NCBI GenBank assembly: GCA_012842395.1
Contig: DUSX01000029.1
Location: 109 to 64,108 of the forward strand
Length of the DNA: 64,000 nucleotides
Direction of reading: 5' to 3'
Origin: Bacillota bacterium
GTDB lineage: Bacteria; Bacillota; SHA-98; UBA4971
Positions 30,715 through 50,061 of the stretch are shown here, in pieces; the stretch's first letter is position 1; each line of letters starts with the position of its first letter. The position numbers and the translations under genes were made by a program. The notes beneath the pieces were generated by a model that saw only the letters and a program-made list of their open reading frames with translations, did not search any database and had not been told where the DNA came from.

Positions 30715-30715
30715 T

Positions 30716-37086: not shown

Positions 37087-38034
37087 GTGTCTTTCGATAA
37101 GAGGGTTCTCTACGAGATCGCTCACCAGTACTATGAGCTCGAGCGCACGCAACAGGAGATCGCGAAAAGCCTGGGCATATCCAGGAGCCAGGTGTCGCGT
37201 GCGCTACAACAGGCGCGCGAGGCCGGGATAGTGCTCCTGAAGGTCATAGATCCGGATGAAGACTACAGCGACCTTGCGCGGGCGCTGAGGGAGCGGTTCG
37301 GCCTCAAGGACGCTGTGGTAATAGGAGGAGTCGACTCCCCGCGCTTGCTTGCACAGAACCTGGGGCGTGCTGCTGCGAGCTACCTCGCCCATTGCGTCAA
37401 GGAGCGTTCGGTGATCGGCGTATCGTGGGGAGCTACGCTGCGTGAAGTCGCGGCGGCGCTCGGTGCCGCAATACCATCGGCCCTCAATGTGACGGTTGTG
37501 CCCTTGCTGGGAGGGCTTGGACAGGTAGCAGCTGACCTCCAGATCAACGAGCTTGCCGCGCGAGTGGCGACCGCACTCGGAGGGGTCAACTTCTACCTCC
37601 ATGCACCGTCGTTTGTTGACACTCCTGAGGCGAAGGCGGCCATCATGGCTGATAGCAATATAAAGAGAGTCGTAGAGCTGTGGGAACGCGTGGACGTAGC
37701 TTTGGTCGGAGTGGGAACCTTCAGGCCGCCTTCGACCCTCCTCGAGAGAGGCGGTTTTCCCGATGCAGAGCTCCGCGAGCTGCGAGGGATCGGCGCAGTA
37801 GGGGACATGTGCATGCGCTTCTTTGACATCCATGGGACGCCGTTGGAGACGTCGCTTAACGACAGGATCGTCGGGGTGACTCTCGAGGAGCTCAGCCGTA
37901 TGGGGTGCGTCATAGCTGTCGCTGGCGGGGCAAACAAGACCGAGGCAATCCTCGGAGCGCTCCGCAGCAGGGTCGTGGACGTGATCATCACAGACGACGC
38001 TGCGGCGAGAGGGGTGATGTCACTGGCCGAGTGA
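37087..38034 (+). CDS. SorC/DeoR-family sugar-phosphate-responsive transcriptional regulator
   Basis: N-terminal HTH (QQEIAKSLGISRSQVSRALQQAREAGIV) plus SorC sugar-binding domain (VIGVSWGATL...LLGG). GTG start with AAAGGAGGA RBS. Confidence 0.8.
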   Translation: MSFDKRVLYEIAHQYYELERTQQEIAKSLGISRSQVSRALQQAREAGIVLLKVIDPDEDYSDLARALRERFGLKDAVVIGGVDSPRLLAQNLGRAAASYLAHCVKERSVIGVSWGATLREVAAALGAAIPSALNVTVVPLLGGLGQVAADLQINELAARVATALGGVNFYLHAPSFVDTPEAKAAIMADSNIKRVVELWERVDVALVGVGTFRPPSTLLERGGFPDAELRELRGIGAVGDMCMRFFDIHGTPLETSLNDRIVGVTLEELSRMGCVIAVAGGANKTEAILGALRSRVVDVIITDDAAARGVMSLAE

Positions 38035-38085
38035 AGCGTGGCAGGCTGTACACTCCATATCTGAGCTTGACTGGAGGTGTCTTTC

Positions 38086-38703
38086 ATGGGGCTTGGTCAG
38101 GGGGCCCTCGGTCTTGGAGTGTCCTACCTTCTTGCCGTTGGCTATCTCGTTCTCATGTGGGTCATCGGGCGATACCTTTCAGCGCATTATCCTGAGGAAC
38201 ACAGGGTCCGCTGGGACACGAGGACGATCGCCAGGGTCACCATCCTGGCCGCGGTGTCTGGCGCCGGTGCGATGATAAAGGTGCCTGGGCCAGCCACCAC
38301 GATAGCTCTGGATGCGGCAGCGGGCTACTTTGCGGCAGTGTTCTTCGGCTGGCCGGTGGGTGCGACGGTGGCCGCAATTGGGTGCTTTATCAGCAACGCT
38401 CTCGGCGGCTTCGCTAGCTGGCTGCCCATGGTGCCGATATACCTCTCAGGGATGGCATTGACTGTGACACTCACCGCGTTCATGGCGAAGAAGGCGGGGG
38501 TGGTGTCGGCCGTCATAGTCGGCACGATCGCCAATACGGTAACATGTCTTGGACCCTGGGTCATCATGATTGGCCTGCCCCTTATGATCGCGATCCTTCC
38601 TTCGCAGATCATTGGATCTGCAGCGAACGCTGCGATCGGTCTGGCTGTGGCTGGGATGCTGAAAACGGCACAGCACAGAAAGCGGCCGGAGCAGGTGGTA
38701 TAG
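38086..38703 (+). CDS. ECF transporter substrate-specific (S) component, specificity unknown
   Basis: About 205 aa with six hydrophobic helices, small Gly/Ala-rich TMs typical of ECF S-components. Directly upstream of the fused EcfA1A2 and EcfT genes. Confidence 0.65.
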   Translation: MGLGQGALGLGVSYLLAVGYLVLMWVIGRYLSAHYPEEHRVRWDTRTIARVTILAAVSGAGAMIKVPGPATTIALDAAAGYFAAVFFGWPVGATVAAIGCFISNALGGFASWLPMVPIYLSGMALTVTLTAFMAKKAGVVSAVIVGTIANTVTCLGPWVIMIGLPLMIAILPSQIIGSAANAAIGLAVAGMLKTAQHRKRPEQVV

Positions 38704-38757
38704 GGGCGCCGCCAGCGAGTTCCAGCCAGTTCACGCATAGCCGCAGTTGGTGAAGAG

Positions 38758-40554
38758 GTGTTCCATTTGACAGACAAGGCCGTATGCTTGAAGAACGTGA
38801 GGTTCAGGTACAAGGGCTCCAATCGCTGGGTGCTGGATGGTGTCTCACTCGACGTCGCAAGGGGTGAGTGCGTGGCTGTGCTGGGCCCCACAGGCTCGGG
38901 AAAGAGCACCCTGTGCGGAGTGATGAATGGCACGGTGCCCCTCTTCCTCGAGGGTGACCTCCAGGGCGATGTGCTCGTGGACGGCATGGTGCCCGCGAAG
39001 GTGGGCACCGCGAAGATGGCGGCTCATGTGGGGCTTGTTTTCGGCGATCCTGACATGCAACTCTTCGGCATGACGGTGGAAGAGGACGTAGCCTTCGGGC
39101 CGGCAAACCTCGGGCTGGACTATCCCACGATCATGGAGCGTGTTCACAAGAGCCTCGTTGATATGCGCCTTACAGGCCTCGAAAGGCGCGCTCCGTACAG
39201 GCTGTCCGGCGGGGAAAGGCAGGCCACGGCCATCGCCGGGGTATACGCAATGCTGCCTGACATCATGGTCCTTGACGAGCCCACATCCATGCTCGACCCG
39301 CAGGGCAAGGCCAGTGTCTTCTCGATTATCAAACGATTGAAAGAAGAGCTGGGGATCACGGTCATCCTCGTCGAACAGGAGGTCGACGATGTTCTCGAGC
39401 TTGCGGACAGGGTATTCGTGATGAACGCGGGCAGATTCGTGCTGCAGGGCACGCCTCGCGAGGTCTTCGGGCGCGTCGCTGAGGTGGCGGCCGCTGGGGT
39501 CCGTGTTCCGCACGTGGTGAGATTCGGCACCCTGCTTGGTGCGGAAAGGGTCCCGTTCACGCTGGACGAGGCCGTCCAACTCGTGGAGAGCGGCGGTTGG
39601 CTGAGTGGCGCTTGGCGGGACACCAGCGACGACGCCGGCGCTGGCGGCGAGAAAGGCACGACCACGACCGCAGGCCACACGTCGAACGCTGTGAGCGGGG
39701 CAACCTCCCCAGGGCACCCGCTGGGTGATGTGATCATCGAAGTGAAGGGCCTCGAGCACAGGTACCCCCAGGGTGCGCTTGCGCTGCGGGGCGTCGACTT
39801 GACCGTACGAGAGGGGGAGTTCATCGCCATAATCGGCCAAAACGGCGCGGGCAAGACCACGTTGACGCGCCATCTCAACGGCCTGTTGAAGCCCACTGCA
39901 GGCGACGTAAGAATCGGCGGCAGGTCAATCAAGGACCTAACGGCAGCGCAGGTTTCGCGCACCGTGGGCTATGTGTTCCAGAACCCCGATGAGCAGCTGT
40001 TCTGCAACAGCGTAGAGGAAGAGCTGCGTTTCGGTCCCGGTAACGTGGGTCTCACCGGTGAGGAACTTGACCGACGGGTCGAGGAGATCCTGCAGGACAT
40101 CGGGCTAGCCGGGTATCGCGAGGTCTGGCCCAAATACCTCACGAAGGGCGAGCGGCAGAGGCTGGCTCTGGCTTCGGTAGTGGCCATGGACCCTGCCATA
40201 CTCATCGTGGACGAGCCGACCACCGGCCTTGACTGGCTCGAATCCCTGCAAATCATGGACTACCTGAAGAGACTCCACGATGACCGGGGCAAGACGGTTC
40301 TCATAATCACGCACGACATGAACATTGTCAGCCTATATGCCAGACGCGTGGTTGTCATGGCGGGCGGTCGTGTGGTCGGCGATGGTTCGCCGCAGGAAGT
40401 GTTCTCGAACCCTGGCCTTATGGCGAAGGCGAACCTGAAACCACCTGCCATTGCGGAGCTATCGGTGAGGTTGTGCGGCCAGGTGGCCCTTACGCCGGAA
40501 GAGGCGGTTGAGACGCTAATGCACTTGAAAGGCGCAAGGGAGGGCTTGCAGTGA
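38758..40554 (+). CDS. ECF transporter fused ATPase (EcfA1-EcfA2, two ABC domains)
   Basis: Two Walker A sites (GPTGSGKSTL; GQNGAGKTTL), two signature motifs (LSGGERQ; LTKGERQ) and two Walker B/D-loops. Confidence 0.85.
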   Translation: MFHLTDKAVCLKNVRFRYKGSNRWVLDGVSLDVARGECVAVLGPTGSGKSTLCGVMNGTVPLFLEGDLQGDVLVDGMVPAKVGTAKMAAHVGLVFGDPDMQLFGMTVEEDVAFGPANLGLDYPTIMERVHKSLVDMRLTGLERRAPYRLSGGERQATAIAGVYAMLPDIMVLDEPTSMLDPQGKASVFSIIKRLKEELGITVILVEQEVDDVLELADRVFVMNAGRFVLQGTPREVFGRVAEVAAAGVRVPHVVRFGTLLGAERVPFTLDEAVQLVESGGWLSGAWRDTSDDAGAGGEKGTTTTAGHTSNAVSGATSPGHPLGDVIIEVKGLEHRYPQGALALRGVDLTVREGEFIAIIGQNGAGKTTLTRHLNGLLKPTAGDVRIGGRSIKDLTAAQVSRTVGYVFQNPDEQLFCNSVEEELRFGPGNVGLTGEELDRRVEEILQDIGLAGYREVWPKYLTKGERQRLALASVVAMDPAILIVDEPTTGLDWLESLQIMDYLKRLHDDRGKTVLIITHDMNIVSLYARRVVVMAGGRVVGDGSPQEVFSNPGLMAKANLKPPAIAELSVRLCGQVALTPEEAVETLMHLKGAREGLQ

Positions 40555-41384
40555 TAGTCGAGTATGAAAGCAAGAACACCCCTATCCACTCGCTCGACCC
40601 GAGGGCCAAGATTCTCTGGTTGCTCGTGGTGGTGGTTATCAGCGTCATCTGGTCGGACCCGGTATACCTCTTCGGGCTTGCCGTGAGCGTCTTCATCTTC
40701 GGCGCCTTCGCCAGGTTCCCGTGGGAGAAGCTGAAAGGCCTCGCAGTATTCCTCACGGTGATGGCGGTGATCATCACCCTCGCGCAGGGTGTGACGTACA
40801 CGCCAGCGGTTGCCCACCTAAAGGAGCCCGGCCGTGTGCTATTCCACATTATACCGGCGTGGGTGCCGGGCGTGGGCCCAGCATGGCCTGTCAAGCTCGG
40901 TGGGTTTCTCTACGGCATCGGTATGACTCTCAAGGTTTTCACCGTTCTGGTGGCAGTGGCTGTGCTTGGGTATGTTACTTCGCCATCAGAGATAGTGCAG
41001 CTTATCGCGAGGATTCCCAAAATGCCCTATCAGGTCGGGTTCATAGTCTCCACAGCATGGAAATTCGTGCCGGTCGTCCAGGCCCAGATCAGGTCGCTCA
41101 TGGACGCTCACAAATCCAAGGGGGTCGAGCTCGACAGGGGCAGTTTCGTGGAGAGACTCAAGAAGACGTCACGGGTGGTGTCCCCTCTGTTTGCGAATGC
41201 GCTCTCCATGGCTGACACGCTTGCCCTCGCGATGGAATCGCGCGCTTTCGGCTCAAGCAAGCGGTTCACGTTCCTGCGGCCGTACAGGTTCAAGGCGCTC
41301 GACTACGTGGTGGTTCTGGCGTGCCTGGGTGCGGCAATCACAAGCATAGCGGGCCTTGCCCTCTATAAGGTGGGATCGCTCTAA
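40551..41384 (+). CDS. ecfT: ECF transporter transmembrane (T) component, CbiQ family
   Basis: LDPRAKILWLLVVVVISV... is the CbiQ/EcfT topology. GTG start overlaps the ATPase stop. Confidence 0.8.
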   Translation: MIVEYESKNTPIHSLDPRAKILWLLVVVVISVIWSDPVYLFGLAVSVFIFGAFARFPWEKLKGLAVFLTVMAVIITLAQGVTYTPAVAHLKEPGRVLFHIIPAWVPGVGPAWPVKLGGFLYGIGMTLKVFTVLVAVAVLGYVTSPSEIVQLIARIPKMPYQVGFIVSTAWKFVPVVQAQIRSLMDAHKSKGVELDRGSFVERLKKTSRVVSPLFANALSMADTLALAMESRAFGSSKRFTFLRPYRFKALDYVVVLACLGAAITSIAGLALYKVGSL

Positions 41385-41387
41385 CGT

Positions 41388-42353
41388 ATGAAAACCGTTG
41401 TAGCGCTGGGGGCTGCTGCCATCGATATGATGATCAAAGTGGATCGGCTTCCGGGGCCTGACGAGATGGTGTTCGCTGAGGATGGCCCGCATTTCCTACC
41501 AGGCGGTTCAACGGCGAACATCGCGGTGGGGCTGGCTCGTTTGGGAGTATCGTCGCGGTTCGTAGGGAAGGTCGGGCCTGATGATAACGGGCAGCGACTC
41601 CTCGAGGCATTCAGGCAGGACGACGTGGACACATCGTTCGTGCTTGTGGATGACCAGGGAAGAACCGCGGAAACCATCATTGCCGTTGATCGCCACGGTG
41701 CGCGGGTCATTTTCTCACTGGGCGGGACGGCTATCCTTGAGAAGCCGGATGAGTTTCGGGCGGAAGCGCTCGCGGGCGCACAGGTCCTCTACGTGGGTGA
41801 GGCGATACCATCCGTCGGGGTGAGGGCGATGAGAGCGGCAAGAGACGTCGGAGCCCTCGTGGTTTACGGCCCGGGCGGGGCCTTCTCCGGTCTCGGGATG
41901 GGCACGCTCGGCGAGATGATTGCCCTCGCCGACTATCTAGTGCTCAGCCGAGGGGAGGCGCGTTTGCTGACTGGAAAGGACGATCTCGATGCAGCGGTTG
42001 GAAGCCTCATGGCTGAAGGCGCGAGACGTGTCGTGGTGACTCAAGGAGACCGCGGGGCGAGTCTGTTTGAGCGAGAGACGGGGGCACCTTCGGCAACGAT
42101 GGCCATTGCGAGACGACACCGGGATGCTTTGAAGGTTCCCGTTGTGGATACCACCGGCGCCGGGGACGCATTCACGGCGGGGTTCATACGCGGTCTTGTG
42201 AGCGGGCTCGACAAAGACCGCTGCCTCGCCCTGGGCAACGCATGCGGAGCGCTGGCGGTGTCAAAGGTGGGAGCAAGGGAGGCCATGCCGACCTGGGACG
42301 AGGTCAGTCCCTACATCGAGTCGCTGGAAAGAGGGGGGTGCTCCCGCGCATGA
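41388..42353 (+). CDS. PfkB-family carbohydrate/nucleoside kinase
   Basis: Ribokinase-like fold with GG motif (FLPGGSTANIAVGLARLG) and C-terminal DTTGAGDAFTAGF anion-hole motif. Confidence 0.8.
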   Translation: MKTVVALGAAAIDMMIKVDRLPGPDEMVFAEDGPHFLPGGSTANIAVGLARLGVSSRFVGKVGPDDNGQRLLEAFRQDDVDTSFVLVDDQGRTAETIIAVDRHGARVIFSLGGTAILEKPDEFRAEALAGAQVLYVGEAIPSVGVRAMRAARDVGALVVYGPGGAFSGLGMGTLGEMIALADYLVLSRGEARLLTGKDDLDAAVGSLMAEGARRVVVTQGDRGASLFERETGAPSATMAIARRHRDALKVPVVDTTGAGDAFTAGFIRGLVSGLDKDRCLALGNACGALAVSKVGAREAMPTWDEVSPYIESLERGGCSRA

Positions 42354-43381: not shown

Positions 43382-44136
43382 CAGGCAAGGAAGTCAGGTT
43401 GCGGAGGATTTTCAGGAGGGGCAGAAGCTTCATAAGCGCCCTTGACTATGGAGGTTTCATGGGGCCTGCCCCGGGGATAGAGGACCCCGGGGCGATCGTG
43501 CGGCAGGTGGTGGACGGCGGGGCCGATGCCATCCTCGTGAACCCCGGCGTCGCCAGGAGCGAGTGGGCGACCTACGCTGGGCGGTGCGGCCTCATAATCC
43601 GGCTCACCGGCGGCGCAACGCGGTACAATCCGAATATGTCCTACCACGCGCTCGTGTGCGGAGTGGAAGAAGCTGTGTCCTTGGGCGCCGACGCGGTGTG
43701 CATCATGGTCCTGGTGGGCGCCCCGGAGGAGCAGCGCATGTTCGAGACCATGGCGGAGGTGATATCGCAGGCGACGAGATATGGGTTGCCTGTGCTCGCC
43801 GAGATCATTCCAGCCGACATGAACATGAGCCATGATCCGGAGTGCATAGCCGTGTGTGCCAGAGTAGGCTACGAGCTTGGCGCGGACTTCGTCAAGACGT
43901 ACTTTACTGGCCAGGGATTCGACAGGATCGTCAGGGCATGTAAGATTCCCATAGTGATCGCCGGCGGGCCTCGGACTTCGGACCCTATCTGCATGGCGAG
44001 GGAAGCGCTCAATGCGGGGGCCGCGGGGATCGCATTTGGCCGCAACGTTTTCGAGGCCGCCGACCCTGAGGCTATGGCGCGCGAGCTTGCGCGCGTGGTC
44101 CATGAAGGCGGGCGAGAGGAAGTGGCTGTGCGGTGA
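43375..44136 (+). CDS. Class I aldolase, DeoC/LacD/FbaB family
   Basis: SALDYG...DAILVNPG...KTYFTG...IAGGPR is the pattern of the PF01791-type TIM-barrel Schiff-base aldolases. Start overlaps the upstream stop (ATGGTGA). Confidence 0.75.
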   Translation: MVTGKEVRLRRIFRRGRSFISALDYGGFMGPAPGIEDPGAIVRQVVDGGADAILVNPGVARSEWATYAGRCGLIIRLTGGATRYNPNMSYHALVCGVEEAVSLGADAVCIMVLVGAPEEQRMFETMAEVISQATRYGLPVLAEIIPADMNMSHDPECIAVCARVGYELGADFVKTYFTGQGFDRIVRACKIPIVIAGGPRTSDPICMAREALNAGAAGIAFGRNVFEAADPEAMARELARVVHEGGREEVAVR

Positions 44137-45176
44137 AGGCGGCGGTTTACTACGGCCCGAGGGACGTCCGGGTGGAGAACGTCTCAGAACCTGCTCTCGA
44201 GCCCGGCGAGGCCCTGTTGAAGGTCATGTTCTGTGGAGTCTGCGGAACCGACATAAAGACGTACCTGAGGGGGCACCCAATGTTCGAGCCGCCCTGCATC
44301 CTCGGTCACGAGCCAGTCGGCGAGATCGTCGAGATGCGGCCGGGGAACGACGCGCGCGGGACGGGACGCGTGTCCGTGGGCGACGTCGTGGCCGTCGCGC
44401 CCTACGTTCCGTGCGACAAGTGCCGGCTGTGCCTCAAGGGAAGGCAGGAGATGTGCGCATCGAAGGAGGGGATAGCTGGCGCGTTTTGCGAGTACATCAG
44501 GCTGCCCGGCGAAGTCTTGGCGAAAGGCGCGTGCAAAGTCCCTGGGGGCCTGTCGCCAAGGGCGGCCTGTCTTGCCGAGCCGGTGGCGTGCTGCCTGAAC
44601 GCGGTCGATGCGACATCCTTCGACCCGGGTGACTCCGTGCTCATCAACGGTGCCGGCCCGATGGGCCTCCTCATGCTAGAGCTGTGCAAAATCAGGGGCG
44701 CAGGGGCGATCTTCGTAAGCGAGCCCAGCGAGACGAGACGCCGAGAAGCTGCCCGGCGCGGGGCGCTTGTGATCGATCCCAGGGTCGAGGACGTGCGCAA
44801 CCGGGTGAACGCGGAAACCGGGGGTGACGGGGCGGATGCCGCTTTTGTGTGCGTAGGTGCGGCTGGCGCACTCGAGGACGCCGTGGCATCGGTCCGTCCC
44901 GGTGGCAGAGTCAACCTATTCGGTGGATTCCCTGGCGGGTCCGAGGTACCTCTGGACCCCAACGCGATCCACTACCGCGAGGTAATGCTCCTCGGTAGCT
45001 TCGGCTTTGCCCCGCGTCACTTCCACATGGCGATTCGGCTTCTCGCGTCGGGAAGACTGGACGTTTCAGGCCTCTTGAGCCAGGAGTTCAGCCTCGACGA
45101 CGTCGGGCTTGCCCTGGATACCGGTGCCTCCGGAGAGACGCTGAAGGTGCTCTTGAGGATGGGCGGGGATGAATAG
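44133..45176 (+). CDS. Zn-dependent medium-chain dehydrogenase (sorbitol/threonine-DH-like)
   Basis: CGVCGTDIKTY...GHEPVGEIVE is the catalytic Zn site. GAGPMGLLMLELCKIRGA is the Rossmann motif. Confidence 0.85.
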   Translation: MKAAVYYGPRDVRVENVSEPALEPGEALLKVMFCGVCGTDIKTYLRGHPMFEPPCILGHEPVGEIVEMRPGNDARGTGRVSVGDVVAVAPYVPCDKCRLCLKGRQEMCASKEGIAGAFCEYIRLPGEVLAKGACKVPGGLSPRAACLAEPVACCLNAVDATSFDPGDSVLINGAGPMGLLMLELCKIRGAGAIFVSEPSETRRREAARRGALVIDPRVEDVRNRVNAETGGDGADAAFVCVGAAGALEDAVASVRPGGRVNLFGGFPGGSEVPLDPNAIHYREVMLLGSFGFAPRHFHMAIRLLASGRLDVSGLLSQEFSLDDVGLALDTGASGETLKVLLRMGGDE

Positions 45177-46755
45177 AAACAGAAACGAGGCATATGTCGG
45201 GATCGATGTCGGGACCTCGTCTGTGAAGGTCGGGCTTCTTGCGGGAGACTCGTACCACGTGGTGACCCGTCCCGCGGGACTCGTAGTGTCACGAGCCGGC
45301 GGTGCCGAGCAGGACGCTCGCGGGCTGTGGGCTACGGTCGCGGGAGCGATCCGGGAGGTAGTGCACGCCGCAGGCGATGACGTGCACGTACGGGCTGTCG
45401 GTCTCTCGGGACACAGCCCCTCCCTGGTCGCGGCCGGGCCTTCTGGAGACCCGCTCACGCCCGTGATCACGTGGATGGATAGAAGGCCGCTTCTCGATGG
45501 GCGCGGAAACCCTGCACCCCTGGACGGCAGCGCCGACTATCGTGCGCAAGGGCCGTCGTTCGAGGCGACCGCGCAGTGGCTCGCAAGCCTTCGTGCGCTC
45601 CAGGCGGAGAGCGGGTGGGTCCTCCTTCAGCCGAAGGACTTCATTGCCCTTCGCCTCACCGGCCGGGCGTGCATCGATTCGTCGTCAGCCTCGTGCTTCT
45701 CCTGGTACGATCCTGCAAGAGGCTGGGATGTCCGTGGCGGACACGACGTCGCCGCCTTCCTGCCCTCGGTCGTTCACCCCTGGGAGGCGTGCGGGACGGT
45801 CACTCATGAGGCCGCCCGCGAAACCGGGCTCCCCGCCGGCATCCCGGTGGCTCCGGGCGGCATAGATGCCGTTATGGAAGCTCTGGGCGCCGGGATCCTC
45901 GGGCCAGGTGCAGCTTGCGACGCCACGGGCACGTCGACGTGCGTGTCGCTGGTCTGTCCGGCTGAAGAAGGTCAGGGCAGCTGCATGTGCCACGTTGCGC
46001 CCGGCAGATTCCTTCGCGTAGCCCCGGTATCATACACCGGGGGCTCGCTTAAGTGGGCCCTATCGGTCCTTTTCCCCGCTGAGGCAAGCGCGACCCACGA
46101 CTGGAGGGAGTTAGTAACCGAGGCCGTTGCGGCGTCACGGCCAGGAGCTTCGGGCCTTCTGTTCATCCCGCACTTGGTGGGCCAACGGAGCCCGAAGGCG
46201 AACCCACATGCTCGAGGCGCATTCGTCGGGCTCGAGCCCAAACACACCAGGGCTGACATGTTGAGGGCGGTACTTGAGGGCTGCTCGTACGCTGTAAGGG
46301 AGAGCCTTGAAGCAATGAGCTGCCACCAGATGACCGCGGAGATGAGGGCGGTGGGTTCCGGGGCGAGGCATGATCCATGGCTCCAGATTAAGGCGGATGT
46401 GCTCGGTATCCCCTATAAGGGGATGTCGATCACAGAGGGGGCCGTGCTCGGGGCCATCGTCCTCGCCGGGCACTGTTGCGGGGATTTCGCGTCGCTCGAG
46501 GAGGCAACCAGGCGTCTTGTCAGCTGGAGGCGGGTTTTCGACCCTTGCGACGACGTGCGCCGCGTCTATGACGTCATGTATGAGGCGTATCGAGAAGCAA
46601 GCATTGGTCTTGAGCGCGCCCAAGAGGTTTTGACGGGCACTCGGACGGACGCTTGCTGGGAGGAAGCGCCCGCTCCCGAGACTGGCCCTGGCCTCCAGGC
46701 GCACGCTCTGATGCGGGACACGGAGGACGAGACATGCCAAGAGACATCAAGCTGA
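45169..46755 (+). CDS. FGGY-family carbohydrate kinase
   Basis: AYVGIDVGTSSVKVGLL is the N-terminal FGGY signature. Full two-domain actin-like kinase length (528 aa). Confidence 0.85.
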   Translation: MNRNRNEAYVGIDVGTSSVKVGLLAGDSYHVVTRPAGLVVSRAGGAEQDARGLWATVAGAIREVVHAAGDDVHVRAVGLSGHSPSLVAAGPSGDPLTPVITWMDRRPLLDGRGNPAPLDGSADYRAQGPSFEATAQWLASLRALQAESGWVLLQPKDFIALRLTGRACIDSSSASCFSWYDPARGWDVRGGHDVAAFLPSVVHPWEACGTVTHEAARETGLPAGIPVAPGGIDAVMEALGAGILGPGAACDATGTSTCVSLVCPAEEGQGSCMCHVAPGRFLRVAPVSYTGGSLKWALSVLFPAEASATHDWRELVTEAVAASRPGASGLLFIPHLVGQRSPKANPHARGAFVGLEPKHTRADMLRAVLEGCSYAVRESLEAMSCHQMTAEMRAVGSGARHDPWLQIKADVLGIPYKGMSITEGAVLGAIVLAGHCCGDFASLEEATRRLVSWRRVFDPCDDVRRVYDVMYEAYREASIGLERAQEVLTGTRTDACWEEAPAPETGPGLQAHALMRDTEDETCQETSS

Positions 46756-47978
46756 TGACGTTGAGCTTGTTCCTGTGGGGGTGGGGGTACGGCCTTTACG
46801 CCTACGTCTTTCCCCTGTACATACGGTCACTGGGCGCTTCGCCGGGGCAGGTTGGGGTCGTCTACTCCGTCATGATGGTCGCCTTGGCTTTGTCGTACAT
46901 CCCTGGTGGCGTCATCGCGGACAAGTACGAGAGAAAGCGGACGATGATTCTTTCCTGGCTCGTTGGGGTTCCGGCGCCTCTTCTGTACTATTTCGCCCGG
47001 GACTACAAGGTTGTCGCGGCCGCATCGGCGCTTTACTCGTTGTCCATGATAGGCTACCCCGCGATGAACGCGTACGCGGCGGCGAGAGCGCCGGCGGGCA
47101 TGTCTGGCCTCGTGTTCGGCGTCATCAACTCCGGTTATGCAGCGGGAATGATAGCCAGCCCCATATTGGGTGGATGGCTTGCACAGGTAATCGGCACGCG
47201 CAACGTCTTCCTCATCACCTTCGTGTTTTTCCTAGCTTCCGTCGCTGTGCTGTGTTTTGTTGACCAACAAGCGCCAAGTGCTTCCAGCTCTCGTGGTTCA
47301 GCCCATACAGAAGACGCAGCAGCAGGCTACGCAGGTCTTCTGCGGCAAAAGCGATTCGCGAGGTTTGTAGTCACGTACTCGTGCATGGCGGTTGCCTACT
47401 ACATGGTTCAACCTCTCATACCCCAGTACCTTGGAGACGAAATGGGAACGAGCTTCGCGTTCATAGGGCTGACCGGATCCATAATGTCGCTGGGCCAGTC
47501 TGTCATCACGGTCATGCTCGGTCGATGCGCGGATAGGTGGGGTACCGTTGTTGCTCTCGGCGGCAACGCGCTCGTGTTTTCCGCTGCGATGCTGGGTCTC
47601 GTGACGGCACGAAGCCTCGCTTTGCTAGCTGGGGTCCTGTTCCTTGCAGGTGCATTCATGGCCGGACAAGGGGTTGCACTTGCCGGCGTTGGCGAGGTTC
47701 TCGGCGGATCGCCCACGGGGCGTGCCTTCGGGCTTTTCAATCTGGCGGTCGCCGCAAGTTCGATCGTTGGGCCATACGCCGGTGGGGTCTTGTACGAGCG
47801 GTCTCCGGCGGTGCCCTTCCTTGCATGTGCAGCGGCATTCGCGGCGATGTCCCTGGTCTTGCTCTTCTGTGAACCCAGACCGAACCGCGCCGGGGAGGTG
47901 GTTCATGCACGAAGATGTGCGCGTTCGGGCGATTCTCCGTCAATCAACTCTTATCTAGGAGGGACAAGAGATGCGTAA
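46734..47978 (+). CDS. MFS transporter
   Basis: 415 aa, 12 TMs, motif IADKYERKRTMIL (MFS motif A-like). Confidence 0.8.
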   Translation: MPRDIKLMTLSLFLWGWGYGLYAYVFPLYIRSLGASPGQVGVVYSVMMVALALSYIPGGVIADKYERKRTMILSWLVGVPAPLLYYFARDYKVVAAASALYSLSMIGYPAMNAYAAARAPAGMSGLVFGVINSGYAAGMIASPILGGWLAQVIGTRNVFLITFVFFLASVAVLCFVDQQAPSASSSRGSAHTEDAAAGYAGLLRQKRFARFVVTYSCMAVAYYMVQPLIPQYLGDEMGTSFAFIGLTGSIMSLGQSVITVMLGRCADRWGTVVALGGNALVFSAAMLGLVTARSLALLAGVLFLAGAFMAGQGVALAGVGEVLGGSPTGRAFGLFNLAVAASSIVGPYAGGVLYERSPAVPFLACAAAFAAMSLVLLFCEPRPNRAGEVVHARRCARSGDSPSINSYLGGTRDA

Positions 47979-48489
47979 GGGTTTCGTCTGGTTCGTGGTC
48001 ATGTGTCTCGTTGCCGGTATTGCGCCTATTGGTTTCGCTGAGACGCCGAAGCCTGCGGGGAAAGTGGTGCTCACTGTAACGGGGGACATCACGGTCAAGA
48101 ACGCCGACGCCGGGCTTGAGTTCGACATGGCGATGCTTGAGGGCCTCGGCCTCACCAAATGCGAAGTCAAAGACCCGTGGCTTGGCAAGAAGGTTTATGA
48201 GGGCGTCCTCATCAGCACCATACTCCAGTATGCTGGGGCGGTGGACACAGCGGATGAGGTGATCGTCGTGGCGAAGGACGGGAAGAAGGTTTCCGTCAAG
48301 GTTGCCGACGCGATCAAGTATCCGATTATGCTTGCGACGAAAGACGGTGGCAAGGCAATAGGAAGCGGCCTTGGCGGGCCGGTGAAGCTGGTGTTCCCGT
48401 ACGACACGCATCCAGAAGTAGAGAAAATCCACGACAAGAATGACTGGAACTGGTATGTCGTGACCCTAGAGGTGAAAGCGAAGTCATGA
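47971..48489 (+). CDS. Secreted hypothetical protein (signal peptide)
   Basis: N-terminal signal peptide MRKGFVWFVVMCLVAGIAPIGFAE. Beta-rich body (DWNWYVVTLEV). GGAGGG RBS. Overlaps flanking genes by ATGA-type junctions. Confidence 0.55.
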   Translation: MRKGFVWFVVMCLVAGIAPIGFAETPKPAGKVVLTVTGDITVKNADAGLEFDMAMLEGLGLTKCEVKDPWLGKKVYEGVLISTILQYAGAVDTADEVIVVAKDGKKVSVKVADAIKYPIMLATKDGGKAIGSGLGGPVKLVFPYDTHPEVEKIHDKNDWNWYVVTLEVKAKS

Positions 48490-49745
48490 CTACCGAATGG
48501 ATTAGGAGAACATACAGGGTCCTCCTCGTCCTTCTGGTCTGCTCGCTGGCGGCCGCCGTGCCCGCGGCCGCCGGCTCCTCCCCGAGCGAGGGGGCCCGCC
48601 CGACGGTGGTCCTGGTCATCCTTGACGGCTGCGCTGCTTACTCATTGGACTTGCTGCCATCCGAGGCATATCTCAGGCAGGCGGCGGCGGAAGGGTTCTA
48701 CCAGCACGTGCGGACCGTGTTCCCGTCTTCCACGGCAGCCGGACATGCGGCCATACTGACCGGCAAGTGGCCCGATGAGAACGGGGTCACAGGCAAACAG
48801 TTCATGGGGAGCGACGGGACGCTGAATGGGTTCAGCTCGCCTCAATTGCTGGAAGCTCCCACAGTGATCGAACGGGCGGCGAAGGCTGGCCTGCGCACAG
48901 CATTCATTTCCGGGAAGGAAGGAGTCAGGTCGCTGTTCGGCGAAGATGCAGACCTCGCGGTGAGCCCGGCGTCAGTGCCATCATGGGTGCTCGAAGAGGT
49001 CGGGCCTCCTCCGGACGAGTCCACGCAATATGAGGACTACTGCGGCTGGTATGAAAAGCTCGACAGATGGGTGATCGATGTAGCGGGTGCTTTCGTGAAA
49101 GAGGCAGGGCCTGGCGCATTCATCGTGCTTAACCTCGCCGGACCGGATAAGGTGGGACACAGGTTTGGGCCCGTTCCTGCGCCTGAGACCACTCAATGCC
49201 TCATCTCAGTAGGAGAGGCTCTCCGCGGTCTGACAGGAGTCCTCGAGGAGGTCGCGAGGGAGGACTGGGCTGTAGTGGTCACCGCAGACCACGGGATGAC
49301 CAGCGTGAGCAAGGCCATTGTGCCGTCAGAGCTGTTCGGAGGCATTGCCGACGATGGCTTGGCATACAGCCTTGACGGAGGTGTCTTGTACGCGTGGCCG
49401 ACGCCGACAACAGAGGAAGCTGTGGTAAGCGCGCTCAAGGGCGCTGAAGGCGTAGCGGAGGTCATCACGACGTCAGACGAAAGACGGGCGCTTCTTCACG
49501 CGTCGCATCCGAGGAGTGCCCCGATCATCGCGATAGCACGCCAAGGTTACATGTTCACTGAGTCCAGCGCGTTCATGGAGTATACGAAGGGCAGCCACGG
49601 AACGCTTCTTGATACAGACGTAATGGTCCCATTAATGGTCTACGGACCCCAGGCGGTCAAGACCGGCATTGGTATCAGCGAGATCGGAGACACAGTGGAG
49701 ATAGCGGGGGTACTCGCCGAGCTCTTGGGCGGCCTGGGGGACTGA
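48486..49745 (+). CDS. Secreted alkaline-phosphatase-superfamily enzyme, nucleotide pyrophosphatase/phosphodiesterase-like
   Basis: Signal peptide. VVLVILDGCAAYSL...TVFPSSTAAGHAAILTGKWPDENGV is a metal/nucleophile-site pattern of type I phosphodiesterase/NPP-like AlkP-fold enzymes. GPDKVGHRFG further supports this. Confidence 0.75.
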   Translation: MTTEWIRRTYRVLLVLLVCSLAAAVPAAAGSSPSEGARPTVVLVILDGCAAYSLDLLPSEAYLRQAAAEGFYQHVRTVFPSSTAAGHAAILTGKWPDENGVTGKQFMGSDGTLNGFSSPQLLEAPTVIERAAKAGLRTAFISGKEGVRSLFGEDADLAVSPASVPSWVLEEVGPPPDESTQYEDYCGWYEKLDRWVIDVAGAFVKEAGPGAFIVLNLAGPDKVGHRFGPVPAPETTQCLISVGEALRGLTGVLEEVAREDWAVVVTADHGMTSVSKAIVPSELFGGIADDGLAYSLDGGVLYAWPTPTTEEAVVSALKGAEGVAEVITTSDERRALLHASHPRSAPIIAIARQGYMFTESSAFMEYTKGSHGTLLDTDVMVPLMVYGPQAVKTGIGISEIGDTVEIAGVLAELLGGLGD

Positions 49746-50052: not shown

Positions 50053-50061
50053 GAGGATGTT

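What the first reader, a model, noticed from the sequence alone, without database searches (positions are those of the whole stretch)
37087..49745. SorC-regulated 12-gene catabolic cluster: ECF importer + PfkB kinase + ARH-family hydrolase + class I aldolase + Zn-dehydrogenase + FGGY kinase + MFS + secreted NPP-like phosphodiesterase
The genes are tightly packed, co-oriented and translationally coupled (ATGA/GTGA overlaps), which indicates one operon. A PfkB kinase adjacent to an ADP-ribosylglycohydrolase-family protein, plus an MFS transporter, mirrors the uncharacterised E. coli yegTUV module. Here it is expanded with a dedicated group-I ECF importer (S component of unknown specificity, fused A1A2, T), a DeoC/LacD-type Schiff-base aldolase, an MDR dehydrogenase and a second sugar kinase (FGGY). 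Two signal-peptide proteins complete it, one an AlkP-fold nucleotide pyrophosphatase/phosphodiesterase-like enzyme. The composition suggests extracellular cleavage of a phosphodiester- or pyrophosphate-linked ribosylated compound, followed by ECF uptake, phosphorylation, N- or O-glycosidic cleavage by the ARH enzyme and aldol cleavage. The substrate is not evident and I do not recognise the combination as a described pathway.
Basis: inference. Interest (0 to 1): 0.7.

Follow-up and report, generated by a model that had tools for sequence, protein, structure and literature searches.

The report
Candidate methanopterin-scavenging operon in digester bacterium
A tightly packed 12-gene operon in an uncultured biogas-reactor Bacillota bacterium most likely imports and dismantles the ribose–ribitol side chain of methanopterin, the pterin C1 carrier of methanogens; no pathway for this was found in the literature searched here.

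Summary
Twelve co-oriented genes (37087-49745) lie between the lysS terminator and a tRNA-Ala, and 8 of 11 junctions overlap.

The same 12 genes, in the same order, recur in other Bacillota MAGs (ARH identity 59-82%) with different flanks.

The enzymatic core (PfkB, ARH, DhnA-type aldolase, Zn-dehydrogenase, FGGY) forms one ARH clade, distinct from E. coli YegU. In three separate lineages of that clade it sits in one co-directional array with tetrahydromethanopterin-dependent genes:
- two Chloroflexi lineages carry fhcBADC and mch;
- one Bacillota lineage carries mch and fhcB above NCBIfam equivalog cut-offs, plus a truncated fhcA-like gene.

Methanopterin has a pterin, a 1-aryl-1-deoxyribitol, an alpha-ribofuranosyl 5-phosphate and a phosphodiester to hydroxyglutarate. 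Each enzyme can be given a chemically sensible step on it.

Best reading (about 0.45): extracellular capture and trimming, ECF uptake, and side-chain breakdown to ribose-5-P and DHAP.

The window itself has no H4MPT gene, and nothing is shown biochemically. The kind is familiar; the substrate and gene combination appear new.

The parts
36942..36985 (+). Intrinsic terminator of the upstream lysS gene (14-nt inverted repeat plus T-run). It marks the 5' boundary of the transcription unit.
   Evidence: Inverted repeat I1 at 36942-36955 / 36963-36976, 93% complementary, followed by CTTTTTATT.
37060..37073 (.). Palindrome TGAACATATGTGCA just upstream of the ribosome-binding site. It is a candidate operator or promoter-proximal site (inferred).
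   Evidence: Inverted repeat I3. AGGAGG at 37075-37080 precedes GTG 37087.
37087..38034 (+). SorC/DeoR-type transcriptional regulator (HTH plus sugar-phosphate-binding domain).
   Evidence: PF04198 8.8e-72. It falls below the equivalog cut-offs for B. subtilis DeoR (240 bits against 420) and LsrR (126 against 486). The gene call starts at 37087.
38077..38703 (+). ECF transporter S component, here called family S-I, of unknown specificity.
   Evidence: PF07155 32.7 bits (cut-off 26.7). No NCBIfam family and no PDB sequence match. It is 33-40% identical to the 175-aa S components of GntR-S-AIRS-A-T-ARH modules, and not similar to the Mch-associated S-II family.
38758..40554 (+). Fused ECF ATPase (A1-A2).
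   Evidence: TIGR04520 484 bits and TIGR04521 468 bits, with two ABC_tran domains.
40551..41384 (+). ECF T (transmembrane coupling) component.
   Evidence: PF02361 CbiQ 2.9e-25. Its start overlaps the ATPase stop by 4 nt.
41388..42353 (+). PfkB (ribokinase-like) kinase. Proposed to phosphorylate the ribose 5-OH of the imported riboside, or free ribose.
   Evidence: PF00294 1.4e-56. Best NCBIfam hits are ribokinase (158 bits) and ribose-1-P kinase (149 bits), both below cut-off. GG and DTTGAGDAF motifs are present (sequence).
42350..43381 (+). ARH-family (ADP-ribosylglycohydrolase-fold) dimetal glycohydrolase. Proposed alpha-O-(5-phospho)ribofuranosidase.
   Evidence: PF03747 1.1e-64. The motifs GDAMGMPVE, TDDT, PTHG and GGDTDT are invariant across relatives. 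AF2 pLDDT 95.7; the best PDB match is MJ1187 (1t5j, TMt 0.91), then DraG and ARH3.
43375..44136 (+). DhnA-type class I (Schiff-base) aldolase-family enzyme. Proposed to release DHAP from a ketose-1-phosphate-like intermediate.
   Evidence: PF01791 4.2e-40; NF005556 248 bits (cut-off 241); PDB MJ0400 2.7e-50, archaeal FBPA, LsrF. The Schiff-base Lys and the LDxG Asp are invariant. The FBPA Tyr146 position is Ile/Leu/Met in all orthologues.
44133..45176 (+). MDR Zn-dependent dehydrogenase (polyol/secondary-alcohol type).
   Evidence: PF08240 plus PF00107. Best NCBIfam hits (IolM, Tdh) are far below cut-off. Catalytic and structural Zn Cys/His and GAGPMG are present (sequence).
45169..46755 (+). 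FGGY carbohydrate kinase (xylulokinase-like, below cut-off).
   Evidence: PF00370 plus PF02782. XylB 233 bits (cut-off 380); LsrK 90 bits (cut-off 528).
46734..47978 (+). MFS_1 transporter. Proposed exporter of the pterin/aryl remnant (inferred).
   Evidence: PF07690 9.5e-44. An MFS_1 transporter occupies the same position after FGGY in L009/L011 and after ARH in L015; the tblastn criteria did not link it to the window MFS.
47971..48489 (+). Secreted PruR-like SUOX-fold protein. Candidate extracytoplasmic pterin-binding protein.
   Evidence: Against A. tumefaciens PruR 7kos E 6e-19; against K. pneumoniae PruR 7rkb E 2e-17. AF2 pLDDT 86.9; the top seven PDB matches are all PruR structures (7kos E 1e-13, TMt 0.88). 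The stacking Trp is conserved; PruR N102/Y104 are replaced by Asp/Lys. It has an N-terminal signal peptide (sequence).
48486..49745 (+). Secreted NPP-type (alkaline-phosphatase-fold) phosphodiesterase/pyrophosphatase.
   Evidence: PF01663 4.5e-34. Weak PDB matches to ENPP7, ENPP4, PhnA and Xac NPP. The Thr nucleophile motif FPSSTAAGH and the metal-ligand motifs LDG, PDKVGH, ADHG and GSHG align with NPPs. It has an N-terminal hydrophobic signal/anchor (sequence).
49977..50083 (+). tRNA-Ala(CGC) and a terminator-like hairpin. These mark the 3' boundary of the cluster.
   Evidence: ARAGORN and Rfam; terminator-like site at 50062-50083.

Best explanation
The operon is a scavenging and catabolic system for methanopterin-type archaeal pterin cofactors (methanopterin, sarcinapterin, tatiopterin and similar), released by dead methanogens in the digester.

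Methanopterin consists of a 7-methylpterin, an NH-phenyl group, a CH2-(CHOH)3-CH2 chain, an O-linked alpha-1 ribofuranose 5-phosphate, and a phosphodiester to 2-hydroxyglutarate. This structure is established chemistry (van Beelen 1984), recalled from memory.

All steps below are inferred.
1. Outside the cell, the PruR-like protein binds the pterin head.
2. The NPP-type phosphodiesterase cuts the phosphodiester and removes the hydroxyglutarate tail.
3. The dedicated ECF importer (S, A1A2, T) takes up the trimmed molecule.
4. The PfkB kinase restores the ribose 5-phosphate, or phosphorylates ribose after its release.
5. The ARH-fold dimetal hydrolase cleaves the alpha-O-ribofuranosyl bond. This is the bond type that ARH3 cleaves in ADP-ribosyl-serine and poly(ADP-ribose). 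The product is ribose-5-P.
6. The exposed 1-aryl-1-deoxyribitol chain is phosphorylated at its terminal OH by the FGGY kinase.
7. The Zn-dehydrogenase oxidises the adjacent carbon, giving a ketose-1-phosphate analogue.
8. The DhnA-type Schiff-base enzyme splits this analogue into DHAP and an arylacetaldehyde-pterin remnant.
9. The MFS transporter exports the remnant.
10. SorC represses the operon until a sugar-phosphate intermediate appears.

Shown here: gene families, intact catalytic motifs, operon structure, conservation, PruR homology, and genomic linkage of orthologous cores to H4MPT genes.

Not shown: any substrate, any reaction, or the direction of flux.
For: 1. **Pterin-binding fold.** The 172-aa secreted protein is a PruR homologue by sequence (7kos E 6e-19) and by fold (its top seven PDB matches are all PruR). 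PruR binds pterins (PMC11194511). Every close homologue found (51-90% identity) whose context was examined lies in this same cluster. More distant copies (26-29% identity) sit in the Chloroflexi versions.

2. **One clade.** The ARHs that have aldolase and Zn-dehydrogenase neighbours group together (the two long-branch Thermotogae loci L012/L051 branch outside), separate from YegU and from the S175/AIRS type.

3. **Linkage to H4MPT genes.** In three lineages of that clade the core is co-directional and contiguous with H4MPT-dependent genes.
   - L010 and L089/L090 (Chloroflexi): FhcB-like, FhcA (TIGR03121, 469 bits against 393), FTR (PF01913 8e-52) and FhcC-like; Mch follows (Pfam-called in L089/L090, seen only by tblastn in L010).
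   - L093 (Bacillota): the core is sandwiched between Mch (TIGR03120, 273 bits against 229) and FhcB (TIGR03129, 401 bits against 328) plus an FhcA-like gene.

4. **Chemical fit.**
   - The ARH keeps all the ARH3/DraG-type metal and catalytic motifs.
   - ARH3 acts on alpha-1''-O-linked ribose (for example PDB 7aqm).
   - The aldolase's nearest solved relative, MJ0400, acts on a deoxy-ketose-1-phosphate (recalled from memory; one search shows only the sequence match, not the substrate).
   - The NPP has a full catalytic motif set and a signal peptide.

5. **Accessory genes in related loci.** All four of these assignments are inferences.
   - Ldh_2 in L009, L011, L012 and L051. This is the family of MJ1425, which makes (S)-2-hydroxyglutarate for methanopterin (from memory).
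   - M20 peptidase, possibly removing the Glu of sarcinapterin.
   - Fe-ADH, possibly handling the aldehyde product.
   - TRZ/ATZ deaminase-like amidohydrolase in L091, L093 and L094, a pterin deaminase candidate.

6. **Habitat.** The window and many relatives come from biogas or anaerobic-digester assemblies.
Against: - The window (64 kb) contains no Mch, Ftr, Fhc, S-II or Pterin_bind gene (tblastn). The H4MPT link rests on orthologous cores in other phyla.
- Two of the three pterin-contact residues of PruR (N102, Y104) are Asp and Lys here.
- The window's S component belongs to the S-I family, not to the Mch-associated S-II family. Its closest relatives outside this cluster type sit in minimal ECF-ARH modules of Bacillus, Melioribacter and Actinobacteria.
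- The Chloroflexi carriers come from a Microflora Danica sample and a metagenome labelled WOOD18 (habitats inferred from the record names only) and hold a full Fhc/Mch set. That looks like cofactor use rather than catabolism.
- The aldolase lacks the FBPA catalytic Tyr and could be a thiolase or transaldolase-like enzyme.
- The window cluster has no enzyme for the pterin ring or the C-N bond.
- Methanopterin is a low-abundance substrate for a 12-gene operon.
- There are no biochemical or expression data.
Confidence: 0.45

Rival explanations
1. The substrate class is the same but the purpose differs. The cluster supplies, remodels or recycles a tetrahydromethanopterin-type cofactor for bacteria that use H4MPT-dependent enzymes themselves. 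It might do this by salvage of exogenous methanopterin or by recycling its breakdown product, methaniline, rather than using it as a carbon or phosphorus source.
For: - In L093 and in L010/L089 the core is embedded among mch and fhc genes (ftr too in L010/L089). These organisms therefore appear to run H4MPT-linked C1 reactions.
- In L094 and L095 an ECF importer (S-II) sits beside Mch. L095 also carries a MeTr-type pterin methyltransferase (NF005719, 267.5 bits against 259). L094 (like L093) carries a Sox-like oxidase.
- ECF importers typically carry cofactors.
- In methylotrophs, H4MPT biosynthesis genes cluster with mch and fhc (from memory).
Against: - Two kinases, a glycohydrolase, a dehydrogenase and an aldolase would destroy the side chain rather than preserve a cofactor.
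- No pterin reductase (DmrA/DmrX type) is in the cluster.
- The 12-gene Bacillota version has no H4MPT enzyme nearby and adds a secreted phosphodiesterase.
- The regulators are of catabolic type (SorC, GntR, sigma-54 activator).
Confidence: 0.15
2. The substrate is some other riboside carrying a polyol- or sugar-like aglycone. Examples are a modified or methylated nucleoside, a ribosyl-polyol from cell-wall polymers, or an unknown natural product. On this view the H4MPT genes are neighbours because the pathway releases formaldehyde or another C1 unit, and the PruR-like protein binds a purine-like or other bicyclic ring.
For: - ARH-kinase pairs occur widely with nucleoside-type transporters: YegT, NCS1 and PnuC.
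- The S-I family is shared with minimal ECF-ARH modules in non-methanogenic habitats.
- The PruR pocket residues are altered.
- Sox-like oxidases and deaminases beside Mch (L093/L094) and a Bmp nucleoside ABC system (L095) would suit methylated purine catabolism.
- DHAP-type aldolases can release formaldehyde from erythrulose-1-P (from memory).
Against: - No specific candidate explains all of: a pterin-binding fold, a phosphodiesterase, an alpha-type ribosidase, and a dehydrogenase/kinase/aldolase triad acting on a polyol.
- Ribose-5-P from a plain nucleoside would not need that triad.
- The triad co-occurs in nearly every locus of the ARH clade containing the window; L092 lacks a recognisable FGGY.
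Confidence: 0.25
3. The substrate is a ribityl-bearing flavin or deazaflavin, namely FAD/FMN/riboflavin or coenzyme F420/FO. The NPP would cleave FAD or the F420 phospholactyl diester. The RibU-like S component would import the flavin. The kinase, dehydrogenase and aldolase would degrade the ribityl chain.
For: - The S component's only family match is the ECF riboflavin S-component family PF07155.
- The ribityl chain chemistry is the same as that proposed for methanopterin.
- Ldh_2 and M20 in related loci could handle the lactate and glutamates of F420.
- F420 is abundant in digesters.
Against: - Flavins and F420 contain no ribofuranosyl glycosidic bond, so the ARH, the anchor gene of the clade, has no role.
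- The PF07155 match is weak (32.7 bits), and NCBIfam finds no RibU-type model.
- The neighbours Mch and Fhc act on H4MPT and methanofuran, not on flavins.
Confidence: 0.07
4. The cluster is an lsr-like system for autoinducer-2 or a related pentose-derived dione: a SorC/LsrR-like repressor, an FGGY/LsrK-like kinase and a DhnA/LsrF-like thiolase.
For: Three of the lsr protein families are present. The aldolase lacks the FBPA Tyr; LsrF, as I recall its sequence from memory, also has no Tyr there (this was not aligned here).
Against: - All three fall far below the equivalog cut-offs: LsrR 126 bits against 486, LsrK 90 against 528, LsrF 175 against 297.
- There is no LsrG and no LsrB-type ABC system.
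- It explains neither the ARH, PfkB, NPP, the PruR-like protein nor the H4MPT neighbours.
Confidence: 0.03

Closest known systems
E. coli yegTUV (YegT nucleoside:H+ symporter, YegU ARH-family protein, YegV PfkB kinase; repressor GgaR/YegW)
   Same: An ARH-family hydrolase sits next to a PfkB kinase and a transporter. A DhnA-type class I aldolase (fbaB) lies beside yegT in enterobacteria. The biochemical function is likewise unknown (PMC10819704).
   Different: - ARH identity is only about 36% and PfkB about 25%.
- The window ARH is in a different clade.
- The transporter here is ECF plus a generic MFS_1, not a YegT-type NHS.
- The regulator is SorC, not GntR.
- yegTUV has no Zn-dehydrogenase, FGGY, PruR-like or NPP gene, and no H4MPT neighbours.
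ARH3 / DraG / Tri1 ADP-ribosylhydrolases (PF03747)
   Same: The fold is the same (Foldseek TM 0.7-0.9). The dimetal and catalytic motifs are conserved. The proposed bond, an alpha-O-glycosidic bond at C1 of a 5-phosphorylated ribofuranose, is of the type ARH3 cleaves.
   Different: - Identity is 20-28%. The nearest solved relative is the uncharacterised MJ1187.
- The gene context is metabolic (kinases, aldolase, importers), not protein-ADP-ribosylation or toxin-immunity.
- The proposed substrate is a small-molecule cofactor, not ADP-ribosyl-protein.
PruR, the periplasmic pterin-binding protein of Agrobacterium and other Proteobacteria (PDB 7kos, 7rkb; PMC11194511)
   Same: A small secreted protein made only of the SUOX fold. 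It lacks the Mo-binding Cys and has Trp instead. Identity is 30-32%, TM 0.88.
   Different: - There is no DcpA-type diguanylate cyclase partner. It is encoded inside a transport and catabolic operon of Bacillota or Chloroflexi.
- The pterin contacts N102 and Y104 are replaced by a conserved Asp-Gly-Lys.
- The presumed role is substrate capture rather than signalling.
Group I (dedicated) ECF importers for vitamins and cofactors (for example the RibU/FolT/QrtT/CbrT classes)
   Same: S, T and A components are encoded together with the genes that use the substrate.
   Different: - The S component matches no named family.
- It is paired with a secreted binding-fold protein and a secreted phosphodiesterase, which to my knowledge is unusual for ECF systems.
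- It is coupled to a multi-step catabolic route.
Pseudouridine catabolism (YeiC PfkB kinase plus YeiN glycosidase), and polyol-to-ketose-1-P-to-DHAP routes (for example the fuculose/rhamnulose and 5-deoxyribose shunts)
   Same: The logic is the same: phosphorylate a riboside, then cleave it to ribose-5-P. The second logic is also shared: oxidise and phosphorylate a polyol, then split off DHAP with an aldolase.
   Different: - The glycosidase family differs (ARH, not YeiN).
- The aldolase is class I DhnA-type rather than class II.
- Both logics are combined in one operon, together with extracellular components.

Membership tests
ADP-ribosylglycohydrolase (ARH) family, PF03747 | Full-length match to the family profile and the all-helical ARH fold | tested here: met
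   PF03747 1.1e-64 over residues 11-305. AF2 pLDDT 95.7; PDB matches are MJ1187, DraG, TTHA ARH-related and ARH3.
ADP-ribosylglycohydrolase (ARH) family, PF03747 | Binuclear metal site and catalytic acidic residues (ARH3 E41, T76-D77-D78, D314/D316/T317; residue mapping from memory) | tested here: met
   GDAMGMPVE, T62-D63-D64, H164 and G279-G280-D281-x-D283-T284 are invariant in two alignments of relatives.
ADP-ribosylglycohydrolase (ARH) family, PF03747 | Substrate is an ADP-ribosylated protein or ADP-ribose derivative | not testable with these tools
   The context argues against it (metabolic operon, no ADP-ribosyltransferase nearby), but only an enzyme assay can decide.
yegTUV-type module | ARH gene adjacent to a PfkB kinase gene | tested here: met
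   PfkB 41388-42353 overlaps ARH 42350-43381 by 4 nt.
yegTUV-type module | YegT-type nucleoside:H+ symporter and GntR-type YegW repressor; ARH orthologous to YegU | tested here: not met
   The MFS here does not cluster with YegT (cluster c3), and the regulator is SorC. The window ARH lies outside the enterobacterial YegU clade in the NJ tree.
Group I ECF importer | S, T and two A domains encoded together | tested here: met
   PF07155 (S), TIGR04520/04521 (fused A1A2) and PF02361 (T) are consecutive.
Known vitamin S-component families (RibU, FolT, ThiT, BioY and others) | Match to a curated S-component family, or similarity to a solved S component | tested here: inconclusive
   Only a weak PF07155 match (32.7 bits against 26.7). 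No NCBIfam family. No PDB sequence match at E<=10.
PruR pterin-binding proteins | Small secreted SUOX-fold protein with Trp in place of the Mo-ligand Cys | tested here: met
   7kos E 6e-19. Foldseek's top seven hits are all PruR structures, TMt 0.88. Trp (W159/W161) aligns with PruR W160. Signal peptide seen in the sequence.
PruR pterin-binding proteins | Pterin contacts N102 and Y104, and a downstream DcpA-type partner gene (PMC11194511) | tested here: not met
   N102 is Asp and Y104 is Lys, as a conserved DGK motif in this subfamily. The neighbours are an MFS and an NPP, with no DcpA-like gene. It is therefore PruR-like, not a PruR orthologue.
NPP / type I phosphodiesterase (PF01663) | Profile match, Thr nucleophile and six metal ligands, extracytoplasmic location | tested here: met
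   PF01663 4.5e-34. The FPSST...H, LDG, PDKVGH, ADHG and GSHG motifs align with ENPP4, ENPP7 and Xac NPP. The N-terminal signal/anchor was judged by inspection. The Asn next to the nucleophile motif is Gly.
DhnA-type class I aldolases (archaeal FBPA / ADH synthase / LsrF group) | DeoC/DhnA TIM-barrel profile and Schiff-base lysine | tested here: met
   PF01791 4.2e-40; NF005556 248 bits against 241. The Lys in GADFVK aligns with T. tenax K177 and MJ0400 K184 and is invariant.
DhnA-type class I aldolases (archaeal FBPA / ADH synthase / LsrF group) | Catalytic Tyr of FBPA (T. tenax Y146); equivalog-level match to ADH synthase, FBPA or LsrF | tested here: not met
   The Tyr position is Ile/Leu/Met in all 13 orthologues aligned. 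TIGR01949 214 bits against 299; NF040816 175 against 430; NF006081 175 against 297.
lsr (autoinducer-2) processing system | LsrR, LsrK and LsrF orthologues plus LsrG and an LsrACDB transporter | tested here: not met
   All three related proteins are far below their equivalog cut-offs. No LsrG or LsrB-type gene is in the cluster.
Tetrahydromethanopterin-linked gene systems | Presence of H4MPT-dependent enzymes (Mch, Ftr, Fhc) in or beside the cluster | tested here: not met
   None in the 64-kb window by tblastn. The feature is met only in orthologous clusters: L010, L089/L090 and L093.
Tetrahydromethanopterin-linked gene systems | Methanopterin is bound, imported or converted by the encoded proteins | not testable with these tools
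   This requires binding and enzyme assays with purified methanopterin.

The most novel reading that the evidence does not exclude
This operon and its relatives encode the first described bacterial pathway for capturing and dismantling methanopterin, the C1 carrier of methanogens. It would use an ARH-fold enzyme as a small-molecule alpha-ribofuranosidase. It would also use a PruR-like secreted pterin-binding protein as an extracytoplasmic partner of an ECF importer. Related islands that hold Mch, Fhc, a second ECF S family, Sox-like oxidases and deaminases would then mark a wider, unrecognised bacterial traffic in archaeal pterin cofactors in methanogenic habitats.
Probability: 0.4. Interest if true: 0.85.

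Novelty: new variant of a known kind. Interest (0 to 1): 0.72.

Why it matters
If the reading is right, it would identify:
- How methanogen cofactors are recycled in anaerobic digesters and sediments. This would be a cross-domain necromass or cross-feeding link for which no genes turned up in the literature searches run here.
- A first metabolic, small-molecule function for the large and mostly unassigned bacterial ARH family. That includes a lead for E. coli YegU and for M. jannaschii MJ1187.
- A non-signalling role for PruR-type pterin-binding proteins.
- An ECF importer working with extracellular helper proteins.

It would also explain the scattered Mch and Fhc genes in non-methylotrophic anaerobic Bacillota, Atribacteria and Chloroflexi.

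The hypothesis is directly testable. Methanopterin can be purified, all proteins are small and soluble apart from the transporter components, and a cultured carrier (Moorella naiadis) exists.

Tried and rejected
- **Literature.** Searches for yegU/yegV, for ARH with ECF or riboside, for ARH catabolic clusters, for methanopterin degradation or scavenging, and for bacterial Mch in Atribacteria, Firmicutes or Chloroflexi found nothing that describes this cluster or methanopterin catabolism. Three papers on methanopterin structure or biosynthesis are not held (two failed look-ups; a third, PMC135262, was not requested), so the structure is cited from memory.
- **Riboswitch or other RNA element.** Rfam gathering-threshold search of the window and four related loci found only the tRNA. 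The first attempt exceeded the size limit.
- **S-component identity.** There is no NCBIfam family and no PDB sequence hit.
- **Rejected readings.**
  - lsr/AI-2: cut-offs are missed by a wide margin.
  - ADH synthase, archaeal FBPA or LsrF orthology of the aldolase.
  - A tagatose, pentitol or inositol route: no equivalog-level hit.
  - Protein de-ADP-ribosylation or toxin immunity: the context is metabolic.
  - Molybdoenzyme function of the 172-aa protein: it has no Mo-ligand Cys, only the SUOX core, and its nearest relatives are PruR.
- **A pattern that does not hold strictly.** I considered that NPP plus PfkB and Ldh_2 plus M20 might be mutually exclusive trimming strategies. L089 and L093 have PfkB without NPP. 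What does hold in the loci examined is that PfkB lies beside ARH in the ECF-bearing loci, while Ldh_2 occurs only in the ABC-only loci.

Full report
**1. Observation**

The region 37087-49745 holds twelve + strand ORFs. They coincide with the gene calls on the public contig that carries this sequence, a 128.8-kb contig of a biogas-fermenter metagenome assigned by NCBI to an uncultured Firmicutes/Bacillota bacterium.

Eight of eleven junctions overlap by 1-22 nt, and the other three gaps are 3, 42 and 54 nt. A hairpin plus T-run terminates lysS at 36942-36985. AGGAGG precedes the GTG at 37087. A tRNA-Ala and a terminator-like site follow the last gene.

**2. Conservation**

The ARH protein has hundreds of relatives (875 at E<=1e-10 among the candidates scored).

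Relatives at 82%, 59% and 61% identity lie in the same 12-gene array, in the same order, inside unrelated flanks (L083, L084, L085). So do L086/L087 and L088, which were reached from the PruR-like protein. One version was seen in 302 blocks of the collection.

A scan of one genome per GTDB species gave 80 more distant ARH loci. Clustering their ORFs shows recurrent modules:
- (a) GntR, a 175-aa ECF S component, an AIR-synthase-like protein, ECF A, ECF T and ARH. This occurs in Bacillota, Bacillus, Melioribacter/Bacteroidota and Actinobacteria.
- (b) ARH, aldolase, Zn-dehydrogenase and FGGY (plus MFS), with a CUT1-type ABC importer and with Ldh_2, Fe-ADH, M20 and an AP_endonuc_2 barrel. This occurs in Firmicutes (L009, L011), and a variant occurs in Thermotogae (L012, L051).
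- (c) ARH and PfkB with YegT, NCS1 or PnuC transporters. This is the yegTUV type.

In a neighbour-joining tree of the ARHs, nearly all loci that also carry the aldolase and the Zn-dehydrogenase form one clade. It contains the window, L083-L088, L092 (Moorella naiadis, an isolate), L093, L009/L011, L089, L091 and L010 (only the long-branch Thermotogae L012/L051 fall outside). It is separate from both the enterobacterial YegU clade and the S175/AIRS clade. The five-enzyme core is therefore one conserved pathway, and its resemblance to yegTUV is only at family level.

**3. The overlooked protein**

The 172-aa secreted protein has only a weak Oxidored_molyb Pfam match. It nevertheless matches the solved pterin-binding protein PruR of Agrobacterium (7kos/7kou, E 6e-19) and of Klebsiella (7rkb, E 2e-17).

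An AF2 model (pLDDT 86.9) finds the PruR structures as its seven best PDB matches (E 1e-13, TM 0.88 on the target). Sulfite-oxidase-family enzymes come only after them.

PruR binds pterins between a Tyr and a Trp, with an Asn hydrogen bond (N102, Y104, W160), and lacks the molybdenum-ligand Cys (PMC11194511). Here the Trp is conserved, but N102 and Y104 are replaced by a conserved Asp-Gly-Lys. The protein is therefore PruR-like and not an orthologue.

All its close homologues whose context was checked lie in this operon. More distant copies (26-29% identity) sit between SorC and the ECF genes in the Chloroflexi versions.

**4. Link to tetrahydromethanopterin**

Before any H4MPT gene had been seen, I noted that methanopterin contains a pterin, a 1-aryl-1-deoxyribitol, an alpha-linked ribofuranose 5-phosphate and a phosphodiester to 2-hydroxyglutarate (note). 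The aminophenyl-deoxyribitol part is confirmed by titles cited in PMC3261824. The rest is from memory of van Beelen 1984.

The neighbourhoods then showed the following.
- **Chloroflexia MAG locus L010.** The array PfkB, Zn-dehydrogenase, aldolase, FGGY, SorC, PruR-like, ECF A, A, T, S-like, ARH, AP_endonuc_2 and ABC importer runs straight into an FhcB-like gene, FhcA, formylmethanofuran:H4MPT formyltransferase (PF01913 8e-52, PF02741 1e-56) and an FhcC-like gene.
- **L089/L090.** This second lineage (ARH 66% identical to L010) has the same array and continues into methenyl-H4MPT cyclohydrolase, Mch. FhcA reaches 469 bits against a cut-off of 393.
- **L093.** In this Bacillota MAG (ARH 45% identical to the window) the core plus an ECF importer is sandwiched between Mch (TIGR03120, 273 bits against 229) and FhcB (TIGR03129, 401 bits against 328) plus an FhcA-like gene. 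A SoxB-like oxidase, a 2-oxoacid dehydrogenase E1/E2 and a deaminase-like amidohydrolase are also present.
- **The same bacterial Mch clade elsewhere.** It occurs in Atribacteria, Spirochaetota and Zhaonellaceae. It sits beside an ECF importer with a second S family (S-II) in L094 and L095. L095 also has a MeTr-type pterin methyltransferase.
- **A recurring deaminase-like gene.** A TRZ/ATZ-type deaminase-like amidohydrolase recurs in L091, L093 and L094.

Mch-type genes are, as far as I know, uncommon in bacteria outside methylotrophs. Adjacency in three lineages of a single ARH clade is therefore unlikely to be chance. I could not compute a background rate, because the metagenome scan failed.

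**5. Enzyme state**

- **ARH.** It keeps the ARH3/DraG-type metal and catalytic motifs. Its model (pLDDT 95.7) is closest to MJ1187 of Methanocaldococcus, whose function is unknown, and then to DraG and ARH3.
- **NPP.** It has the Thr nucleophile and all the metal-ligand motifs, plus a signal sequence.
- **Aldolase.** It keeps the Schiff-base Lys and the Asp. It has Ile/Leu/Met where archaeal FBPA and MJ0400 have the catalytic Tyr, with a conserved Glu two residues earlier. Its exact chemistry (aldolase, transaldolase or LsrF-like thiolase) remains open.
- **PfkB, FGGY and the Zn-dehydrogenase.** They have their usual motifs but reach no equivalog cut-off.

**6. Explanation**

The most economical model is uptake and side-chain catabolism of methanopterin-type cofactors. 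All steps are inferred.
1. The PruR-like protein binds the pterin outside the cell.
2. The NPP removes the hydroxyglutarate by cutting the phosphodiester.
3. The ECF system imports the trimmed molecule.
4. PfkB provides the ribose 5-phosphate.
5. The ARH cuts the alpha-O-ribosyl bond, giving ribose-5-P.
6. FGGY and the Zn-dehydrogenase convert the freed deoxyribityl chain into a ketose-1-phosphate analogue.
7. The DhnA-type enzyme releases DHAP and an aryl-acetaldehyde remnant.
8. The MFS transporter may export the remnant.

In the ABC-type loci, Ldh_2 could oxidise the hydroxyglutarate. Ldh_2 is the family of MJ1425, which makes (S)-2-hydroxyglutarate for methanopterin (from memory). M20 could remove the extra Glu of sarcinapterin, and Fe-ADH could handle the aldehyde. 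I give this model about 0.45.

**7. Rivals**

- **(a) Same molecule, but salvage, remodelling or recycling for bacteria that use H4MPT themselves (0.15).** The embedding among mch and fhc genes and the S-II/MeTr/Mch islands favour it. The destructive enzyme set and the secreted phosphodiesterase argue against it.
- **(b) Another riboside with a polyol-like aglycone, with the C1 genes present because formaldehyde is released (0.25).** The wide spread of ARH-kinase modules, the S-I family's relatives in non-methanogenic habitats and the altered PruR pocket favour it. It offers no concrete substrate that uses all the parts.
- **(c) Flavin or F420 ribityl-chain catabolism (0.07).** It fails to give the ARH a role.
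- **(d) An lsr-like AI-2 system (0.03).** It fails all equivalog cut-offs.

**8. Weaknesses**

- The window has no H4MPT gene.
- Its S component is not of the Mch-associated type.
- The pterin pocket is modified.
- The aldolase is atypical.
- Methanopterin is scarce.
- There are no experimental data.

**9. Novelty and verdict**

No paper found here describes this cluster, a function for yegTUV (still unknown in 2024; PMC10819704) or any methanopterin catabolism.

The system is of a familiar kind, a regulated uptake-plus-catabolism operon built from known enzyme families. The proposed substrate, the small-molecule role of an ARH enzyme and the pairing of an ECF importer with a PruR-like binding protein would all be new. 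I rate it a new variant of a known kind, interest 0.72.

Noticed in passing
L084:2516-4636 (+): One orthologous cluster carries an extra 706-aa protein directly upstream of the SorC gene. Its N-terminal ARH domain scores PF03747 8.4e-55, and about 400 further residues have no family match.
   Followed up: partly
window 42350-43381; PDB 1t5j: The nearest solved structure of the ARH enzyme is MJ1187 of the methanogen Methanocaldococcus jannaschii (phmmer 7e-29; Foldseek TMt 0.91), whose function is unknown. If the window enzyme acts on methanopterin, MJ1187 might act in methanopterin turnover.
   Followed up: no
L003, L006, L007, L008, L014, L015, L017, L024; also L004/L005: A widespread minimal module consists of GntR, a 175-aa ECF S component, an AIR-synthase-like protein (PF00586, weak), ECF A, ECF T and ARH. 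It occurs in several phyla. In Melioribacter and Bacteroidota it also has a BtuF-like Peripla_BP_2 protein and a PHP-domain protein. The AIRS-like/ARH pair also occurs in Nitrososphaeria. It points to an unknown riboside; the AIRS-like protein may replace the PfkB kinase.
   Followed up: partly
L093:1-8167, L094, L095: A clade of bacterial methenyl-H4MPT cyclohydrolases in anaerobes (Bacillota, Zhaonellaceae, Atribacteria, Spirochaetota) sits beside an ECF importer with a distinct S family (246-252 aa). Its other neighbours vary by locus: SoxA/SoxB/SO_alpha_A3-like oxidase genes and a TRZ/ATZ deaminase (L093, L094); 2-oxoacid dehydrogenase E1/E2 (all three); and, in L095 only, a MeTr-type pterin methyltransferase, a Bmp nucleoside ABC system and an isochorismatase-like hydrolase. 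This may be an unrecognised pterin/C1 island.
   Followed up: partly
L083:18022-18409; L086:11952-14185: Two orthologous 12-gene clusters are followed directly by transposase genes (rve; IS21 IstB plus Mu-type). The flanks of all versions differ. In the window a tRNA-Ala follows the operon. The cluster may move horizontally.
   Followed up: no
window 33735-34637 (+) and about 30700-32908 (+): Upstream of greA and lysS lies a conserved 300-aa ORF with no Pfam family. Before it is a 730-aa gene product whose Pfam hits combine HflX-type GTPase domains with a Dus (dihydrouridine synthase) domain, an unusual fusion. It was seen only in the contig's gene table.
   Followed up: no
L022 and other enterobacterial loci; PMC10819704: In enterobacteria the DhnA-type class I aldolase gene fbaB lies divergently next to yegT-yegU-yegV. 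An ARH/PfkB/DhnA-aldolase neighbourhood therefore also exists there, although GgaR does not regulate fbaB.
   Followed up: partly
window 47971-48489; NCBI HPZ92981.1 and relatives: Public annotation calls the PruR-like protein 'molybdopterin-dependent oxidoreductase' or 'hypothetical protein'. It has no Mo-ligand Cys and consists only of the SUOX core, so the oxidoreductase name is probably wrong.
   Followed up: yes
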